Shown: one piece after another, positions 7,908-13,757 of the stretch
Layout of the letters: every line of letters begins with the position of its first letter
Position numbering within the stretch: position 1 is the first letter of the stretch
Source of the DNA: Methanomassiliicoccales archaeon UBA147
Lineage (GTDB): Archaea; Thermoplasmatota; Thermoplasmata; SG8-5
Reading direction: 5' to 3'
Length of the DNA stretch: 64,000 nt
Assembly (NCBI GenBank): GCA_002496385.1
Contig: DAJR01000027.1
Location: 1,155-65,154, forward strand
The notes under the pieces: generated by a model
Seen by the model: only the letters and a program-made list of their open reading frames with translations
Database searches by the model: none
What the model was told of the DNA's origin: nothing
Position numbers and translations under genes: made by a program

Positions 7908-9227
7908 TCAAAAGAACTTCTTCAGCACATCGGAGAGGTCGGGTTTCGAGATTTCTTCCAGACTGTAGAAGACCCGAACGATCGGCTTGTTGACATTCAG
8001 AACCCTGTTCAGATCGATGGGCGTGCCTGCCAGGACTATGTCGCAGGGTGTTTTGTCGATAGTGGCCTTGAGGTCTGCAATCTGCTTGTCGGAGTATCCC
8101 ATGGCAGGGAGAAATTTCTTGCCCTTCACATGGGGGTACTTCTCGAATGTCTTCTTTATCTCCCCGACAATGTAGGGCAGCGGGTCAACAGACTCGCCCG
8201 CGCCGAATTGCTTGGCTGCGACCATGCCTGCACCATAGGACATTTCCCCGTGTGTCAGGGTGGGCCCGTCCTCGATTATCAGGACCTTCTTTCCGCGGAT
8301 TGCATTCTCATTCTCAATTGTGACCGGCGATGCTGCCTTGATCACAATGGCCTCCGGGTTTGCGAACTGCGTGTTCTTCAGGACAATGTCAACCTTGTCC
8401 GGGTCCGCAGTGGTGATTTTGTTCACGATAACGACATCGGCCATTCTCAAATTTGTTTCGCCGGGGAAATATGCCAGCTCGTGGCCCGGCCTGTGCGGAT
8501 CGACGATGGTGATATGCAAATCCGGCTTGTAGAACGGCGTGTCATTGTTGCCGCCGTCCCAAATGATGATGTCCGCCTCCTTCTCGGCTTCTTTGAGGAT
8601 GGCGCCGTAATCCACTCCGGCATAGACGATGATGCCCTTGTCGATATGGGGCTCGTATTCTTCCCTCTCCTCGATAGTGCACTTGTGGAGGTCCAGGTCC
8701 TTGTAGGTCGCGAACCTTTGAACGGCCTGTTTGGCGAGATCTCCGTAGGGCATCGGGTGGCGGATTGCGACGACCCTCTTTCCCTTGGCCTTCAGCAAAT
8801 CGACGACCTTCCTGGTGGTCTGGCTCTTGCCGCAGCCTGTTCTCACGGCGCAGATTGCTATTACCGGGATCTTGGACTTTATCATTGTCCTCTCGGCATC
8901 CAGCAATTTGAAGTCTGCACCGTGTGCGGTCACGATGGCTGCTTTGTTCATGAGCACCGGATACGGAACGTCGCTGTAGGAGAACACGACCTCATCCACT
9001 TTGAATTTCTCTATGAGTTTCACAAGGTCGTCCTCCGAATAGATCGGGATGCCCTTCGGATAAAGCTTGCCAGCCAGAACCGGCGGGTACGTCCTTCCGT
9101 GGATATCCGGTATCTGGGCGGCCGTGAAGGCCACGACCTCGAAATCCTTGTTGTCCCTATACACAACGTTGAAGTTGTGGAAATCCCTGCCCGCTGCGCC
9201 CATTATCAGTATTTTTTTTACTGCCAT
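7908..9227 (-). CDS. COG2403-type P-loop protein (predicted GTPase / cyclic 2,3-diphosphoglycerate synthetase-related)
   Basis: N-terminal Rossmann-like ILIMGAAGRDFHNFN segment and an internal P-loop AVRTGCGKSQTT. Length is 439 aa. A GGTGA Shine-Dalgarno-like sequence precedes the start. Confidence 0.55.
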   Translation of the reverse strand: MAVKKILIMGAAGRDFHNFNVVYRDNKDFEVVAFTAAQIPDIHGRTYPPVLAGKLYPKGIPIYSEDDLVKLIEKFKVDEVVFSYSDVPYPVLMNKAAIVTAHGADFKLLDAERTMIKSKIPVIAICAVRTGCGKSQTTRKVVDLLKAKGKRVVAIRHPMPYGDLAKQAVQRFATYKDLDLHKCTIEEREEYEPHIDKGIIVYAGVDYGAILKEAEKEADIIIWDGGNNDTPFYKPDLHITIVDPHRPGHELAYFPGETNLRMADVVIVNKITTADPDKVDIVLKNTQFANPEAIVIKAASPVTIENENAIRGKKVLIIEDGPTLTHGEMSYGAGMVAAKQFGAGESVDPLPYIVGEIKKTFEKYPHVKGKKFLPAMGYSDKQIADLKATIDKTPCDIVLAGTPIDLNRVLNVNKPIVRVFYSLEEISKPDLSDVLKKFF

Positions 9228-9334
9228 ATGCTCACCTGTAACTAATTATGCCCATGGGATAACGCATGTTCCATATGTATTTTATCATTGGATTATGAAC
9301 CATTTGTAACTATACTATGTGACATTTATTGCAG

Positions 9335-9490
9335 GGGGCTAGGGGCTTTGCATACAATATGGAATAAAGGGTCTAGGGGCTTTGCATGGAAAATGGAATA
9401 AAGGGGCTAGGGTTTGCTGGCTGTCGTGAACAGCCAGCAAAAAACATATGTTAACAACCCTAGACCCCAGACCCCAGACCCTAGACCCCT
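9335..9490. repeat. Composite intergenic repeat element, copy 1. It has two 34-bp GGG(G/T)CTAGGGG units, a core hairpin, a palindrome and a (CCCYAGA)n arm.
   Basis: Read directly from the sequence. The units are ggggctaggggctttgcat...ggaataaa x2. The core is ggggctagggtt-TGCTGGCTG-tcgtgaa-CAGCCAGCA-aaaa-AACATATGTT-aac-aaccctagaccccagaccccagaccctagacccc. Confidence 0.9.
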
Positions 9491-9589
9491 GATTCACAAA
9501 GACAAACAAACCCTTTCAAGGGTCGGCAGTTTACTTTATCTAAAAATCTGTGCAGATTTTATTATCTCTTGCTTTCGCTGCAAGGCAAG

Positions 9590-9614
9590 AAAAAAAAAGG
9601 GGAGGATTAATCCT
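9590..9614 (-). terminator. Putative terminator of the FtsZ-like gene (palindrome plus T-run)
   Basis: On the minus strand, AGGATTAATCCT (9603-9614) is followed by CCCC and a run of 9 T (9590-9598). This lies 12 nt after the stop codon. Confidence 0.5.
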
Positions 9615-9625
9615 GATTAGTGATT

Positions 9626-10459
9626 CTAGAATCTCTGGAACACACCGCCCATCTCGACAAGGTTCTTGTCGGATGGCTGCGGATAGGCCAATGGCCCGAA
9701 TCCCTGGTCCGTGGCAATGCCGCACTCCGCAACCGTGAAACCCGGTTGCGAGCCTCCAAGGCTCGAAAGGTCTGTCTCGGACCTGAATGCCATTATCTCA
9801 TCGGCCATCACAGCCATGAAGGAACGGCTCATGGAATCGCTGACATCCCTGATTATCTTCACGACCATCGAGTCCATAATTGAATATGCCCTGGAGAGGG
9901 ATATGTCCCTGTCGAACTTGAGGAGCGCATCGTTGTCCAACGCTATTGTGCTGTCAGTGAGCAGCCTGAGTTTCTCGACATGCTCTTCGGCCATCTCTCT
10001 CCTCGAAGATTCCGCGCTGAATGGAAGGATGCAGACCGCGAAAGTGACCAACCCGAGGCCCTTCGCCATCTCGGCAACCATCGGGGCTACCCCGGTTCCG
10101 GTGCCGCCGCCGAATCCCGCGACAATGAACACGACATCCTTCGATATGAGGCATGAGCGGATGTCCTCCTGGGCAAGCTCCGCGCATCTCTGGGCCACCT
10201 CTATGTAACCTCCGGAATCATGGTTGAATGTGATGCTCTTTCCTATGCAGATCTTCCTGTCGGCGTCAACGAGCCTGAGGCCCGTCATGTCTGTGTTCAC
10301 GGCAATCCTGGGAACCCCCTTGAAATGCCCGCCCATCCGACCGACTGTCTGTATGCCAGCTCCACCGCAGCCGAGTATGACCATACGCGGCTCGCTCATA
10401 CAATCCGATATTATGTTGAGTATCTCGTTTTCCATCTTCACTTCCGACGCTAGGCTCAT
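9626..10459 (-). CDS. FtsZ/tubulin-superfamily GTPase, short form (N-terminal GTP-binding domain only)
   Basis: ILGCGGAG (T1), AVNTD and the tubulin signature GFGGGTGTG are present, along with LPFSAE and ALDNDALL. The protein ends about 60 aa after helix H7, so I see no T7 loop or C-terminal domain. An AGGAGGG Shine-Dalgarno-like sequence lies 8 nt upstream. Confidence 0.8.
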   Translation of the reverse strand: MSLASEVKMENEILNIISDCMSEPRMVILGCGGAGIQTVGRMGGHFKGVPRIAVNTDMTGLRLVDADRKICIGKSITFNHDSGGYIEVAQRCAELAQEDIRSCLISKDVVFIVAGFGGGTGTGVAPMVAEMAKGLGLVTFAVCILPFSAESSRREMAEEHVEKLRLLTDSTIALDNDALLKFDRDISLSRAYSIMDSMVVKIIRDVSDSMSRSFMAVMADEIMAFRSETDLSSLGGSQPGFTVAECGIATDQGFGPLAYPQPSDKNLVEMGGVFQRF

Positions 10460-10684
10460 CGTTATGCCCTCCTTTGATGAAATTGGAACGAAGGCCCGCC
10501 CTCAGGCATTTGCGGGGAATAATGCCGGACTTTCACCGATATGATTGAACCTGATGTTTCCCTTTCAGGCAGAGTGCATCCCATCCCTCTGACAGCCAAG
10601 GCCTTGCGCTTTACTCGAGCCGGATACTATTTCTGTTGATGTCTGACGACGGTTCTTCGTTCCCGATTGCGTTTGAATTGTCCT

Positions 10685-11071
10685 CTACGGTGTAATAATC
10701 TGTCTTGAGGTGCGGTTCTCGATTTCCACGTCCGCTTTCTTCCCTGCAGCGATCTCCATCCGCTTCATCGCCATGAATGCCTCCTTGACGCGCTCCTCGG
10801 TGAAAAAGCTGTCAATGGCGGCTTGCACTGCGTGTGCCTGCGACCTGTAGAATCCGCGGTTGACCATGGTCCCAATGAACTCTTTGACAAGCGGGGCCAC
10901 CTCGACCGTTATCGCGTTCTGCTGCTGCTGGGCGTCAAGCAAGGCACGGGCGGCGGCTCTTAAAAATTCGCTCCGGTTGGCATAGCCCTTGGTCCTGACC
11001 AAAGCGTCTATCTCTTCCATCATCGCCTTCTCGAAACGAGCCGAAATCCGTTCCTCAACCTGTTCCTGCAT
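10685..11071 (-). CDS. Ribbon-helix-helix (CopG/Arc/MetJ-type) DNA-binding protein, 128 aa
   Basis: RISARFEKAMMEEIDALVRTKGYANRSEFLRAAARALL is a canonical beta-alpha-alpha RHH segment. Confidence 0.75.
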   Translation of the reverse strand: MQEQVEERISARFEKAMMEEIDALVRTKGYANRSEFLRAAARALLDAQQQQNAITVEVAPLVKEFIGTMVNRGFYRSQAHAVQAAIDSFFTEERVKEAFMAMKRMEIAAGKKADVEIENRTSRQIITP

Positions 11072-11080
11072 TTTGCACCA

Positions 11081-11103
11081 ATTTGTCTGACAAATTTTTA
11101 TAT
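11081..11103 (-). promoter_or_regulatory. Candidate leaderless promoter plus operator of the 128-aa RHH gene
   Basis: On the minus strand, a TATAAAAA TATA-like box (11096-11103) lies about 25-30 nt upstream of the ATG (11071). A perfect palindrome ATTTGTC-T-GACAAAT (11081-11095) sits between the TATA box and the start. Confidence 0.4.
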
Positions 11104-11302
11104 CGTGTAAGACAAACGTAACCGATAATGTGTTTATGGTATAAATAGTTTTTGTTATTTGTCATTTTCACTCATAAATTTTGTCATACATTTGATTTTT
11201 TCTTGAGCACTGGCATGATTGAAAACCCATGCTTGAGGCAAAAATGAATGCCGAGCTTCTTGTTGTGGAAGGCTTCTGATTTGCATACCTGGCATATGTA
11301 CC

Positions 11303-11548
11303 TCATCGCATCGTCTCCTTCCATTCAACGATATCCGTTATGCTGTATTCCTCCCTTATCTGGACGAACGGGCAACCCACGCTTTTTCCCGTGTCGAAGC
11401 AATCGAATCCCTCCGAACGGATGCATCTTTCACATTCGGTTATGACCGCAAAAAGAAGCATTTTTTCCAACCTGGAGAATTCCCTGAGACCCATTTCCTC
11501 ATGTTCGCGGGTCACATCATCCGTCATTTCATGCGTGAGACTGGACAT
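11303..11548 (-). CDS. Small cysteine-rich hypothetical protein (81 aa)
   Basis: The start is set at MSSLTHEM, 4 nt after the upstream gene's stop. The cysteine pattern is C-x2-C...C...C (CERCIRSEGFDCFDTGKSVGC). The gene lies in an operon between the two RHH genes. Confidence 0.45.
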   Translation of the reverse strand: MSSLTHEMTDDVTREHEEMGLREFSRLEKMLLFAVITECERCIRSEGFDCFDTGKSVGCPFVQIREEYSITDIVEWKETMR

Positions 11549-11552
11549 AGTA

Positions 11553-11948
11553 TCAAAGCTCCTCCAGCTTCTTTGCTTTCTTTTTAAGTTCCTCAAGGGC
11601 GTCATCCGCGGCCATGTTCTCCCTGAGAATGGCTTCCATTCTGCCCCGGCGCCTCAGGTAGTAGATCTCCAGGTCCCTGAGCCAAAAATCCAACGCGAGA
11701 ACGACTGCCTCCTGGGAATCTCTGGCATCGCCGTTCATTATGTGTCTCTGAAGCCTTTCGGCAGTGCGATTCGGAATGTTCAGGGTGATTCCGGTGGTGT
11801 TCCATCCGTCCTTGTGTTCCATGACATAGCTGGCGATGGCCTCCCTGATGACCGAGCTTCGGCTCGTGAATCCCTCCCTCTGCCCTATGGCATCAAGTTC
11901 CTCGAGCAACTCGAGCTCCACCCTGACATCGACCCTTTCCTTATTCAT
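11553..11948 (-). CDS. Ribbon-helix-helix DNA-binding protein with a C-terminal coiled-coil extension (about 131 aa)
   Basis: VDVRVELELLEELDAIGQREGFTSRSSVIREAIASYV is an RHH segment. I prefer the start at MNKERV (11948) because the longer MCAQMCAQ extension is generated by a tandem DNA repeat. Confidence 0.7.
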   Translation of the reverse strand: MNKERVDVRVELELLEELDAIGQREGFTSRSSVIREAIASYVMEHKDGWNTTGITLNIPNRTAERLQRHIMNGDARDSQEAVVLALDFWLRDLEIYYLRRRGRMEAILRENMAADDALEELKKKAKKLEEL

Positions 11949-11958
11949 TCCATCCACC

Positions 11959-11981
11959 TGCGCACACATTTGCGCACACAT
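11959..11981. promoter_or_regulatory. Tandem direct repeat TGCGCACACAT x2 between a TATA-like box and the RHH gene start
   Basis: Copies at 11959-11969 and 11971-11981. A TATA-like tatttaata (minus strand) lies at about 11983-11993. Confidence 0.35.
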
Positions 11982-12094
11982 CTATTAAATACCTATCTGC
12001 TCCTATATCGAAAAGTCCGTATTTAAAAGTTTTGATTGTGAGTAACAGGTCAGGATTCTGATATTTTAAATTGTAGATTTTCGATTTTAGATTT

Positions 12095-12377
12095 TTGTTC
12101 ACAGCTTGCTGTTTTTTCATTTCTTTTTGGATAATGGGGTCTAGGGTCTTTGCTTACAAAATGGATTTAAGGGTCTAGGGTCTTTGCATGCAAAATGGGA
12201 ATAAGGGTCTAGGGTCTTTGGTTGTAAAATGGGATTAAGGGGCTAGGGATTGCTGGCTGTCATGAACAGCCAGCACAAAGCAAATGTTAGCAACTCTAGA
12301 CCCTAGACCCTAGACCCTAGTCCCTAGACCCAGACACATAAAATCGTTATTCAGATACTATTCCAGCGAACTCTTGC
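12095..12377. repeat. Composite intergenic repeat element, copy 2 (long form with conserved flanks)
   Basis: It has three 34-bp gggtctagggtctttg...aa units, then the core hairpin tgctggctgtcatgaacagccagca (12251-12275), then (ccctaga)n at 12301-12331. Its left and right flanks are near-identical to those of copy 3. Confidence 0.9.
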
Positions 12378-12422
12378 AAACCTGCGAAACAAGTAAATAC
12401 ATGATATCAAATATCTTTCATC

Positions 12423-12932
12423 ATGAGAGCTACGGTTGCGATAACTGTTCTGGCGATCTTCATGGTCATCGCCTCAATCGCATCGGCCAGCCCCGCCCTG
12501 AGCTCCCCCAAGGTCCTGCCAACCACAGGCACTTCGGGCGATGTTTTCACATTCACTGTTCATTACAAAGGGGATTCGCCGGTTTCCGTGACATTCTATG
12601 CCGACAATGCCCCTCTTGAGATGCAGGAAGTGGACCCCGGGGACCAGAATTACACCGATGGCAAGGACTATTTCATCCGTGTGAACCTGGAAGAAGGAAC
12701 AACCATTTATTATTTCAAGGCCACAACCGCCGCGGGCGAGGAAACGAGAACCGCCGCGACCACGATCAATGTCCAGCCTCCCGAAGGTTTGAGGGTCGAC
12801 CACATAGACGTCGTGCTGGCTGTCCTGATATTCCTCATTCCCACGGTGTGGGGTCTGGTCATGTTCCGGAGATTGTCAAAAGACCTTAGGGAGACAATGC
12901 AAATTCTGAAGGAGAGAAAAAAATCAGAATAG
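12423..12932 (+). CDS. Secreted, C-terminally membrane-anchored small protein (Ig-like ectodomain)
   Basis: Signal peptide MRATVAITVLAIFMVIASIASA. C-terminal TM VVLAVLIFLIPTVWGLVMF followed by a basic tail. Confidence 0.6.
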   Translation: MRATVAITVLAIFMVIASIASASPALSSPKVLPTTGTSGDVFTFTVHYKGDSPVSVTFYADNAPLEMQEVDPGDQNYTDGKDYFIRVNLEEGTTIYYFKATTAAGEETRTAATTINVQPPEGLRVDHIDVVLAVLIFLIPTVWGLVMFRRLSKDLRETMQILKERKKSE

Positions 12933-13757
12933 GTTGACAAGGTACAGGCGTTTGGTCCTGTTCATGCTGACCACATGCCCTGGTTTGAACCTCTCCTCAA
13001 TGCCCGCGAGTGCATTGACCAGTTCCACCATTTCTCTTTTCGTCGGGTTATCGAGGTCCAGCCCCACCTGCAGTATCTGGCGCTCTATCACCGGGCCGGC
13101 ATTGGCAGGCCCCCCGAACTGGTCGGTGAAGTCCGCGATGATGCGATCCAATGCATCTTTGAGATTGTTGATTTCTGTTTTGTCAATAATATATTGGGTA
13201 TAATTAAGTCGGGCGCTCTCCGTGTTCCTGAGGATAGCCTCGGCCAGTTCAGTGAAGACAGCCTCTACATTAAATCCGTCCTTGGAGCTGGTCAGGAATA
13301 CCTGCTTTCGCAGATTGCAAGGGTCATATTCTCTGGCAAGGTTATTCAATTCCCTTTCGCCGAACTCGGCCTGGGCCTGGAGGTCGCTTTTGTTCCCGAG
13401 AAAAACCATGGGCATCGCCCCGGATATGCTCAGCAGAGAAGGAATCCAGTAATCCTTGAGGCTCTGAAGTGTGTCTCCTCTGGTGACGTCGGAAACCAGA
13501 AGCGCTCCCTCGATGCCTCCGAAGGAGAGTGCCTGGGTATATTGGTATCCCCTCTGGCCGAGTATATCCCAGATCAGGAGAATGACATGCTTTTGGCCGG
13601 TGTCCGGTTTGAAGTACATGTCCTTCTTCGTCACCTTTGAACCAAGGGTGGTCATGTACTTGTCGCTGAACTGGTCCGTGACGAAACGGCGCACAAGACT
13701 CGTTTTTCCCGTGGCCCCGTCCCCGAGGAGTATGATGTTCTTTTTCAGGGTCTCCAT
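12924..13757 (-). CDS. Ras/Rab-like small GTPase with an approximately 100-aa C-terminal helical extension
   Basis: G1 GDGATGKT, G2 TTLG, G3 WDILGQ, G4 GNKSD and G5 TSSKDG are all present. Confidence 0.8.
   Translation of the reverse strand: METLKKNIILLGDGATGKTSLVRRFVTDQFSDKYMTTLGSKVTKKDMYFKPDTGQKHVILLIWDILGQRGYQYTQALSFGGIEGALLVSDVTRGDTLQSLKDYWIPSLLSISGAMPMVFLGNKSDLQAQAEFGERELNNLAREYDPCNLRKQVFLTSSKDGFNVEAVFTELAEAILRNTESARLNYTQYIIDKTEINNLKDALDRIIADFTDQFGGPANAGPVIERQILQVGLDLDNPTKREMVELVNALAGIEERFKPGHVVSMNRTKRLYLVNLF

What the first reader, a model, noticed from the sequence alone, without database searches (positions are those of the whole stretch)
9626..10459. A 277-aa FtsZ-family protein lacking the T7 loop and C-terminal domain
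The N-terminal GTP-binding domain is clearly present, with GCGGAG, NTD, the tubulin signature GGGTGTG, and the LPF and NDAL motifs. The sequence ends about 60 residues after helix H7. I find no counterpart of the NxDxxD T7 'synergy' loop or of the C-terminal beta-domain that completes the GTPase site of the next subunit in FtsZ/CetZ polymers.

Such a protein could bind GTP and dock on a filament end, but could not activate hydrolysis in a neighbouring subunit. It would then act as a capper or regulator rather than a polymer former. This is inference.

The C-terminal tail (PSDKNLVEMGGVFQRF) might be a partner-binding peptide. Short FtsZ-like families lacking the C-terminal domain have been proposed computationally but remain uncharacterised.
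Basis: partly seen in the sequence, partly recalled or inferred. Interest (0 to 1): 0.6.

Follow-up and report, generated by a model that had tools for sequence, protein, structure and literature searches.

The report
Half-size FtsZ2 paralog in Thermoplasmata
This is an intact, selected gene for an archaeal cell-division FtsZ that keeps only its GTP-binding half; it belongs to an old, apparently undescribed family that probably caps or tunes FtsZ filaments rather than building them.

Summary
Window 9626-10459 (-) encodes a 277-aa protein with a complete FtsZ nucleotide-binding domain and helix H7. It has no FtsZ_C (GTPase-activating) domain and no intact NxDxxD T7 motif.

It is not a pseudogene. 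Relatives of 245-295 aa occur in at least 29 of 41 related genomes (14 of 19 families of the class), and dN/dS is 0.03-0.31. All 51 sampled members form one clade (99/98). That clade lies on the FtsZ2 side of the archaeal FtsZ tree (100/100), next to full-length FtsZ2-like genes.

Like FtsZ2, it sits directly behind a CdrS-like ribbon-helix-helix gene, in 14 of 15 loci. So it is an ancient duplicate of the cdrS-ftsZ2 unit that lost its bottom half once.

After H7 come three parts: a degenerate T7/H8 remnant (N and first D lost; last acidic residue kept in 48 of 51), an acidic disordered linker, and a subfamily-specific C-terminal peptide without the archaeal SepF-binding GID motif.

Best mechanism (inferred, about 0.45): it binds GTP, docks by its intact top face onto the T7-exposing growing end of FtsZ filaments, and blocks further addition.

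I found no description of this family. Novelty: new variant of a known kind.

The parts
9626..10459 (-). Short FtsZ gene, 277 aa plus stop
   Evidence: ORF; PF00091 is the only family hit; family of 245-295-aa relatives; dN/dS 0.03-0.31
9824..10384 (-). Residues 26-212: nucleotide-binding domain (T1-T6 loops) and core helix H7
   Evidence: Pfam and PDB alignments; pLDDT above 90. T1, T2, T4, T5, T6 and the H7 Asp are kept in 43-51 of 51 members; T3 is changed from GxGAG to GxDSG
9758..9823 (-). Residues 213-234: degenerate T7/H8 remnant (SRSFMAVMADEIMAFRSETDLS), modelled as a continuation of H7
   Evidence: Column comparison with 45 full-length FtsZ: N and the first D are lost, the last acidic residue is kept in 48/51; pLDDT about 66-68
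9680..9757 (-). Residues 235-260: variable, acidic, disordered linker
   Evidence: pLDDT below 50; poorly conserved and variable in length
9629..9679 (-). Residues 261-277: conserved C-terminal peptide (PSDKNLVEMGGVFQRF)
   Evidence: Conserved in the near subfamily; replaced by GFGPSMFG or SPMFA in others. Short helix 262-269; no GID motif; unique in the genome
10467..10472 (-). Shine-Dalgarno-like GGAGGG, 7 nt before the ATG
   Evidence: Read from the sequence; no terminator-like site between the RHH gene and ftsZ on this strand
10685..11071 (-). 128-aa tandem ribbon-helix-helix protein (CdrS-like), directly upstream on the same strand
   Evidence: PF01402/PF17723 and NCBIfam CdrS at 1.5e-9; an ortholog lies directly upstream of the short ftsZ in 14 of 15 loci across the class
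11303..11548 (-). 81-aa Cys-rich ORF between the two RHH genes
   Evidence: Conserved only in order-level relatives; no family hit
11553..11981 (-). 142-aa second tandem RHH protein
   Evidence: PF01402 and aCcr1-like hit at 2.4e-7; conserved only in order-level relatives
9509..9524 (-). Terminator-like hairpin followed by a T-run, about 100 nt after the stop codon
   Evidence: Consensus scan only; weak evidence

Best explanation
The gene encodes a functional, vertically inherited 'half FtsZ'. It is a member of a Thermoplasmata-wide family that arose once, by duplication of the cdrS-ftsZ2 unit and loss of the GTPase-activating (C-terminal) domain. These points are shown here: intact GTP-binding loops; loss of two of the three T7 catalytic residues and of the whole C-domain; a disordered linker followed by a conserved terminal peptide; purifying selection; a single origin inside the FtsZ2 lineage; and a conserved CdrS-like RHH gene upstream. 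The following is inferred. The protein binds GTP and docks by its intact top (nucleotide) face onto the T7-exposing bottom end of FtsZ2 (and possibly FtsZ1) filaments, which is the growing end. The filament subunit's T7 loop could then complete the active site over the short protein's GTP. The short protein offers no bottom face for the next subunit, so it would cap the end, shorten filaments or change their turnover. Its terminal peptide may recruit another partner. Its dose would be set by the adjacent RHH regulator.
For: Architecture. T7 residues lost while GTP loops are kept, including the equivalents of S. aureus D46 and R143 that organise the interface. Not a pseudogene: about 45 clusters of 252-281 aa, at least 29 of 41 related genomes, at least 25 clusters at 50% identity, dN/dS 0.06-0.14 for the N-domain and 0.03-0.31 for the tail. 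Single origin: 100/98 and 99/98. FtsZ2 descent: the split {short + RHH-linked full-length clade + Halomarina FtsZ2 from a cdrL-cdrS-ftsZ2 locus} against FtsZ1-type proteins has 100/100 support. A CdrS-like RHH lies upstream of both the short and the full-length FtsZ2-like genes. Potential partners exist in the same genome: three full-length FtsZ with FtsZ_C and SepF. No separate gene for an FtsZ_C domain is present. Literature: incoming subunits add by their GTP-bound top face to the T7-exposing growing end, and bottom-interface mutants are toxic cappers (PMC8936486). Truncated bacterial FtsZ1 blocks division when overexpressed (PMC13732431). [quoted passage not shown]
Against: There is no interaction, localisation or activity data, and no complex model could be run with these tools. 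Loops that touch the upper subunit are altered in a family-specific way: T3 G to D in 41/51, the T5 Gly deleted in 41/51, and the last T1 Asn variable. The canonical interface may therefore be changed or lost. The conserved hydrophobic T7/H8 remnant and its retained acidic residue hint at some other packing or a residual bottom-face role. The only invariant gene neighbour is a DNA-binding protein, which fits a regulatory role as well as a filament-capping one. Kinetic polarity was established for bacterial FtsZ, not for archaeal FtsZ.
Confidence: 0.45

Rival explanations
1. It is a non-polymerising GTP switch that works with the adjacent CdrS-like tandem RHH protein. The short FtsZ would bind or release the regulator according to its nucleotide state, or according to its titration by FtsZ filaments. 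That would feed the state of the division machinery back to transcription of division genes.
For: The RHH gene is the only neighbour conserved across the class, in 14 of 15 loci. CdrS-type RHH proteins regulate ftsZ2 and division genes in haloarchaea (PMC7439475). The family-specific T3, T5 and T1 changes suggest release from filament-interface constraints. The conserved tail peptide has no known partner.
Against: The cdrS-ftsZ2 pairing is inherited from the ancestral operon, so adjacency needs no protein-protein contact. No tubulin-family protein is known to act this way. Retention of the full GTP site and of T5 Arg and T2 Asp fits a filament-type active site.
Confidence: 0.2
2. It is a self-assembling polymer of a new kind. 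The extended H7 and hydrophobic T7/H8 remnant, with its conserved acidic residue, would replace the missing domain as a minimal bottom face. Homopolymers, or mixed polymers in which it is an internal subunit, could then form.
For: The remnant motif SRSYxAxLA[DE]EI is conserved, and the Asp equivalent to E. coli D212 is kept as E or D in 48/51. All characterised tubulin-family proteins polymerise (PMC2875224, authors' response).
Against: Two of the three catalytic T7 residues, invariant in 45/45 full-length proteins, are lost. The whole C-domain that forms most of the bottom interface is absent. The remnant is modelled only at pLDDT about 66.
Confidence: 0.12
3. It is an adaptor or competitor rather than a cap. 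The protein would use its terminal peptide and N-domain to bridge FtsZ filaments to another, unknown membrane or division protein, or to compete with FtsZ for such a partner.
For: A disordered linker followed by a conserved C-terminal short motif is the layout of FtsZ tails that bind anchors (PMC8178401). The tail is under purifying selection.
Against: The tail lacks the archaeal GID motif (0/51) and differs between subfamilies. No candidate partner gene is co-conserved apart from the RHH gene.
Confidence: 0.15
4. It is a decaying or recently truncated ftsZ pseudogene, or half of a split gene whose C-domain is encoded elsewhere.
For: It has only about 75% of normal FtsZ length, and NCBI annotates relatives as hypothetical proteins.
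Against: Length and motifs are conserved from 100% down to about 35% identity in dozens of genomes. dN/dS is well below 1 in both parts. The truncation has a single ancient origin. There is no stand-alone FtsZ_C hit in the genome, and the downstream genes differ between loci.
Confidence: 0.01

Closest known systems
Archaeal FtsZ2 (cdrS-ftsZ2 operon; Haloferax and Halobacterium)
   Same: The N-terminal domain is 40-45% identical. It falls on the FtsZ2 side of the tree with 100/100 support. It sits directly behind a CdrS-like RHH gene (PMC7439475).
   Different: It has no FtsZ_C domain. The T7 motif is reduced from N/D/D to one acidic residue. It has no GID tail. T3, T5 and T1 carry family-specific changes. 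The genome also keeps a full-length FtsZ2-like gene.
Engineered bottom-face FtsZ mutants and the MciZ and SulA type of end-cappers in bacteria
   Same: The predicted activity is the same: an intact top face adds to the growing, T7-exposing end and blocks further growth (PMC8936486).
   Different: Those are point mutants or unrelated small inhibitors that bind FtsZ. This would be a natural, genome-encoded FtsZ paralog lacking the entire bottom half. Its activity has not been tested.
Truncated FtsZ paralogs of Hyphomicrobiales (A. tumefaciens FtsZ1 and FtsZ3; PMC13732431)
   Same: They are old, retained, shortened FtsZ duplicates proposed to tune division; FtsZ1 overexpression blocks division.
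   Different: The bacterial paralogs keep the whole GTPase domain (both subdomains) and lose only the linker and C-terminal peptide. The archaeal family loses the activating subdomain itself and arose independently.
ARC3 of chloroplasts
   Same: [quoted passage not shown]
   Different: ARC3 is a eukaryotic multidomain protein (FtsZ-like, middle and MORN domains). There is no sequence-level relationship beyond the FtsZ fold, and none was tested here.
FtsZl1 / FtsZl2 (Pfam Tubulin_2, PF13809; PMC2875224)
   Same: They are tubulin-superfamily proteins without an FtsZ_C or Tubulin_C domain, and they are uncharacterised.
   Different: FtsZl1 lacks recognisable T6-H7, carries coiled-coil or other long C-terminal regions, and sits in vWA operons. 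The present protein has clear T6 and H7, hits PF00091 and not PF13809, and nests inside FtsZ2.

Membership tests
Canonical FtsZ (TIGR00065 equivalog) | N-terminal nucleotide-binding domain with the GGGTGTG signature and T1-T6 loops | tested here: met
   PF00091 at E 5.8e-30; M. jannaschii FtsZ at E 9e-35; motif columns conserved
Canonical FtsZ (TIGR00065 equivalog) | T7 synergy loop NxDxxD | tested here: not met
   The query reads V-M-A-(gap)-D-E at the NLDFAD columns. In the family, N is kept in 1/51, the first D in 1/51 and the last position as E or D in 48/51, against 45/45 for each residue in full-length FtsZ
Canonical FtsZ (TIGR00065 equivalog) | C-terminal GTPase-activating domain (FtsZ_C, PF12327) | tested here: not met
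   No PF12327 hit. The genome-wide PF12327 scan finds only the three full-length genes. The model has no second domain. phmmer with a C-domain query finds none in 51 short proteins
Canonical FtsZ (TIGR00065 equivalog) | Score above the curated equivalog cut-off | tested here: not met
   159.2 bits against a cut-off of 295.2, with profile positions 16-205 of 353 matched
Canonical FtsZ (TIGR00065 equivalog) | Archaeal C-terminal GID peptide that binds SepF | tested here: not met
   G[IVL]D or a looser pattern in the last 14 residues: 0/51 short against 17/45 full-length. The motif is taken from PMC8178401. The test has low power
Canonical FtsZ (TIGR00065 equivalog) | GTP-dependent head-to-tail polymerisation | not testable with these tools
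   Needs biochemistry or multimer modelling
FtsZ2 lineage (by descent) | Groups with FtsZ2 rather than FtsZ1 in a tree of the N-domain | tested here: met
   The split separating short proteins, RHH-linked full-length proteins and Halomarina FtsZ2 from FtsZ1-type proteins has 100/100 support
FtsZ2 lineage (by descent) | A cdrS-type RHH gene immediately upstream | tested here: met
   The window RHH hits the CdrS model at 1.5e-9, below its cut-off. It is present in 14 of 15 short loci. Full-length sisters have a CdrS-like RHH at 1e-15 to 3e-22. The reference cdrL-cdrS-ftsZ2 locus was read in Halomarina
FtsZl1 / FtsZl2 (Tubulin_2) | PF13809 match; T6-H7 not recognisable (FtsZl1); vWA-gene neighbourhood | tested here: not met
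   Only PF00091 is hit. T6 and H7 align residue by residue. No vWA genes lie nearby
CetZ | Closer to CetZ than to FtsZ; tubulin-like C-domain | tested here: not met
   CetZ structures 4b45, 4b46 and 3zid score E 5e-9 to 2e-4, against 1e-34 for FtsZ
TubZ-type (type III) DNA segregation | Two-domain polymerising TubZ with an adaptor and centromere, on a plasmid or phage | tested here: not met
   There is no second domain. The context is chromosomal, syntenic and vertically inherited. A DNA-binding RHH neighbour is present, but it is explained by cdrS ancestry
FtsZ filament end-capper (functional class) | Binds a filament end through one face and blocks subunit addition | not testable with these tools
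   Inferred only, from the intact top face, the missing bottom face and the published polarity (PMC8936486)

The most novel reading that the evidence does not exclude
A tubulin-superfamily protein has stopped being a polymer subunit and become a GTP-dependent sensor. The half-FtsZ would be titrated by free FtsZ2 filament ends. Through its tail or its exposed H7 face, it would control the adjacent CdrS-like tandem RHH regulator. Transcription of division genes would then track the assembly state of the ring, giving an archaeal analogue of cytoskeleton-to-transcription feedback.
Probability: 0.1. Interest if true: 0.85.

Novelty: new variant of a known kind. Interest (0 to 1): 0.62.

Why it matters
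Archaeal FtsZ-based division has very few known regulators: SepF, CdrS, MinD-like proteins and CdpA. No filament end-capper is known in archaea. A natural, class-wide FtsZ paralog that retains only the nucleotide-binding half would be a ready-made probe of several open questions:

- the polarity of archaeal FtsZ filaments;
- whether hetero-interfaces between FtsZ paralogs exist;
- how the cdrS module controls division.

It would also show that the two FtsZ subdomains can be separated in evolution and the half kept for a very long time. The protein is small and soluble-looking, so it can be tested in vitro with its cognate FtsZ2 and FtsZ1 and in Haloferax. The organisms themselves are uncultured, which limits in-host tests.

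Tried and rejected
- **Pseudogene or recent truncation:** rejected on family conservation, single origin and dN/dS.
- **Split gene with the C-domain encoded elsewhere:** rejected. PF12327 is found only in the three full-length genes, and downstream genes vary between loci.
- **FtsZl1/FtsZl2, CetZ or TubZ membership:** rejected (PMC2875224).
- **SepF-binding GID tail:** absent in 0/51 short proteins.
- **Tail motif shared with other proteins of the genome:** none found.
- **Shared operator upstream of both the RHH gene and the short ftsZ:** the palindrome ATTTGTCTGACAAAT is exact only at 11081-11095. Near-matches are no more frequent than chance.
- **Known RNA families in 9200-12400:** none.
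- **Promoter and terminator scans:** at chance level.
- **Tree errors, corrected:** one reference tree carried a mis-cut fragment of the Halomarina FtsZ2 reference, which broke the short clade; this was fixed. In one search the long-branched outgroup and a name-matching slip made the output unusable, and it was discarded.
- **Downstream 439-aa gene:** a P-loop protein weakly similar to cyclic 2,3-diphosphoglycerate synthetase. It is a neighbour only in three families, so I treated it as unrelated.
- **Methanogen host:** no mcrA was found in the 86%-complete genome.

Full report
**1. Observation**

The minus-strand ORF 9626-10459 starts with ATG and encodes 277 aa. A GGAGGG Shine-Dalgarno-like element lies 7 nt upstream.

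- The NCBIfam ftsZ equivalog scores 159 bits against a cut-off of 295 and matches only profile positions 16-205 of 353.
- Against PDB sequences the best match is M. jannaschii FtsZ (E 9e-35). It aligns query residues 13-213 to FtsZ 29-229, which ends at the end of helix H7.
- An AlphaFold2 model built on 27 family members has mean pLDDT 78. The N-domain is confident (blocks of 85-96). One helix runs through residues 188-234, at about 66-68 beyond residue 211. Residues 235-260 are disordered, and a short helix spans 262-269. There is no second globular domain.
- Foldseek returns FtsZ structures at E about 1e-19 to 1e-20, but only about 187-206 columns align.

**2. The T7 region**

I aligned 51 short proteins with 45 full-length FtsZ from the same class.

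| T7 position | Full-length FtsZ | Short family |
|---|---|---|
| N | 45/45 | 1/51 |
| First D | 45/45 | 1/51 |
| Last D | 45/45 | E or D in 48/51 |

Residues about 213-231 (SRSFMAVMADEIMAF) are therefore a recognisable but degenerate remnant of T7/H8. They keep a hydrophobic pattern and one acidic residue.

The nucleotide-binding loops are retained: T1, T2 (NTD), T4 (GGGTGTG), T5 (PF..E..R), the T6 Asn and the H7 Asp are kept in 43-51 of 51 members. Some family-specific changes sit in loops that face the upper subunit in a filament:

- T3 changes from GxGAG to GxDSG (Asp in 41/51).
- The T5 Gly is deleted in 41/51.
- The last T1 Asn is variable.

**3. Not a pseudogene, but a family**

- The 5.8-billion-protein search returned about 45 clusters of 252-281 aa carrying PF00091 only, from 100% down to about 38% identity. 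Where named, they come from Thermoplasmata or Thermoplasmatota MAGs.
- In 41 related genomes the family is present in at least 29, covering 14 of 19 families of the class.
- A profile search of 1.84 billion representatives shows at least about 25 further short clusters at the 50% identity level.
- Nei-Gojobori dN/dS between close relatives is 0.06-0.14 for the N-domain and 0.03-0.31 for the last 65 residues.
- The genome (2.0 Mb, 86% complete, no mcrA) also has three full-length FtsZ with FtsZ_C, a fifth very divergent tubulin-like gene, and SepF.
- No stand-alone FtsZ_C gene exists, so this is not a split gene.

**4. Origin**

The closest paralog in the genome is the 351-aa FtsZ on contig C1, at 44% identity over the N-domain. 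The other two are at 37%.

Maximum-likelihood trees of the N-domain alone give three results:

- All 51 short proteins form one clade, with support 100/98 and 99/98.
- That clade nests among full-length proteins of the C1 type.
- With Halomarina halobia references, the split {short family + C1-type clade + Halomarina FtsZ2 + its Methanocalculus ortholog} against {the other two clades + Halomarina FtsZ1} has 100/100 support.

I identified the Halomarina FtsZ2 reference by reading its cdrL-cdrS-ftsZ2 locus directly, as described for haloarchaea in PMC7439475.

Gene context agrees with the tree:

- Every full-length C1-type gene examined is preceded by a tandem RHH gene of about 105 aa whose best NCBIfam hit is CdrS (E 1e-15 to 3e-22).
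- The short gene is preceded by a tandem RHH gene of 124-151 aa in 14 of 15 loci across the class.
- The window's copy (10685-11071) also hits CdrS best, at 1.5e-9.
- The second RHH gene (11553-11981) and the 81-aa Cys-rich ORF between them occur only in order-level relatives.
- Flanking genes otherwise differ between loci, and all contexts are chromosomal.

The simplest history is one ancient duplication of a cdrS-ftsZ2 unit, followed by one loss of the activating domain and then vertical inheritance.

**5. The tail**

After the remnant helix comes a variable, acidic, proline-containing linker and then a short terminal motif.

- In the window's subfamily the motif is P-x-A-[YF]-P-x-P-S-D-x-N-L-V-x-x-G-G-x-F-[QE]-R.
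- Other subfamilies end in GFGPSMFG or SPMFA. The most divergent members end in other aromatic and acidic motifs.
- None has the archaeal GID motif that binds SepF (0/51 against 17/45 full-length proteins; motif from PMC8178401).
- The motif occurs nowhere else in this genome.

The layout is that of an FtsZ C-terminal peptide, but the partner is unknown.

**6. Mechanism**

The structural logic is shown. The protein keeps the whole nucleotide-bearing top face. It lacks the domain and two of the three residues that a subunit must insert into the next subunit's GTP site.

Published work on bacterial FtsZ concludes the following (PMC8936486, citing Du et al. 2018 and Redick et al. 2005):

- Monomers add through their pre-organised, GTP-bound top face to the T7-exposing bottom end of the filament.
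- That end is the growing end.
- Bottom-interface mutants are toxic, whereas top-interface mutants are not.

By inference, a half-FtsZ of this kind would add to the growing end of FtsZ2, and perhaps FtsZ1, filaments. It would have its GTP site completed by the filament's T7 loop and would block further growth until it leaves. I rate this at about 0.45.

Precedents for FtsZ-derived negative regulators exist. Truncated FtsZ1 of A. tumefaciens blocks division when overexpressed (PMC13732431). [quoted passage not shown]

Several points count against the capper model:

- The T3, T5 and T1 changes may have altered the canonical interface.
- The conserved hydrophobic remnant helix and its retained acidic residue are unexplained.
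- The only invariant neighbour is a DNA-binding protein.
- Polarity has not been measured for archaeal FtsZ.

The rivals are a GTP switch acting with the RHH regulator (0.2), an adaptor or competitor acting through the tail (0.15), and a new self-assembly mode (0.12).

**7. Comparison with what is known**

By descent this is an FtsZ2-lineage protein. It fails four defining features of a canonical FtsZ: the T7 motif, the FtsZ_C domain, the equivalog score and the GID tail.

It is not FtsZl1 or FtsZl2. It has no PF13809 hit, T6-H7 are present, and there is no vWA context (PMC2875224). It is also not CetZ or TubZ.

The bacterial 'truncated paralogs' keep the entire GTPase domain and lose only the linker and tail (PMC13732431), so the truncation here is of a different kind.

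Full-text searches of the library found no description of this family. These included the surveys of the archaeal FtsZ/tubulin family (PMC9871819, PMC8178401 and bioRxiv 10.1101/2020.06.04.133736). Sources label its members 'hypothetical protein' or simply 'FtsZ'. Absence from this library does not prove that the family is unpublished.

**8. Limits**

- No multimer modelling was available.
- The remnant helix and the tail are modelled at low confidence.
- Counts of genomes carrying the family are lower bounds, because the match list was truncated.

Noticed in passing
G000 contig C34:8687-9670 (+), outside the window: A fifth, very divergent 327-aa tubulin-like protein. PF00091 matches at E 1e-9 and phmmer finds no FtsZ_C similarity. 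It sits on a very long branch in the tree.
   Followed up: no
Relatives, e.g. G024 C123:20641/21870, G034 C28:16970/18236, G013 C6:27926/29157: Many genomes of the class carry tandem pairs of full-length ftsZ genes. Both members fall in the FtsZ1-like clade, and genomes hold 5-8 FtsZ-type genes in total.
   Followed up: partly
L044:620-940, L048:2182-2505, L033:1664-2008, L060:1901-2218: In this class the CdrS homolog upstream of full-length FtsZ2-like genes is a protein of about 105 aa with two CdrS-like RHH repeats in one chain. The haloarchaeal CdrS is about 60 aa with a single RHH (compare).
   Followed up: partly
window 11303-11548 (-): An 81-aa Cys-rich ORF (CERC...C...C) lies between the two RHH genes and overlaps the end of the upstream one. 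It is conserved in order-level relatives only and has no family hit.
   Followed up: partly
window 11081-11095: A perfect palindrome, ATTTGTCTGACAAAT, lies just upstream of the 128-aa RHH gene. It is the only exact copy in the window and is a candidate operator.
   Followed up: partly
window 7908-9227 (-): A 439-aa P-loop protein with no Pfam or NCBIfam hit, weakly similar to cyclic 2,3-diphosphoglycerate synthetase (9sxb, E 3e-6). It lies downstream of the short ftsZ only in three families of the order.
   Followed up: partly
window 12924-13757 (-) and 12423-12932 (+): A Ras/Roc-like small GTPase with a C-terminal extension of about 100 aa, and a 169-aa membrane protein. They lie next to the RHH-ftsZ cluster here and in one relative (L011), and the GTPase also in another (L043); elsewhere they are further away or absent.
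   Followed up: no
P0121: A 5647-aa database protein matches the family profile in 57 separate stretches, all to profile positions 58-85. This is probably a repeat or compositional artefact.
   Followed up: no
P0122, P0123, P0125: Proteins of 744-840 aa each have two FtsZ N-domain matches, suggesting fused or tandem FtsZ-like architectures among the top hits to the short-family profile.
   Followed up: no
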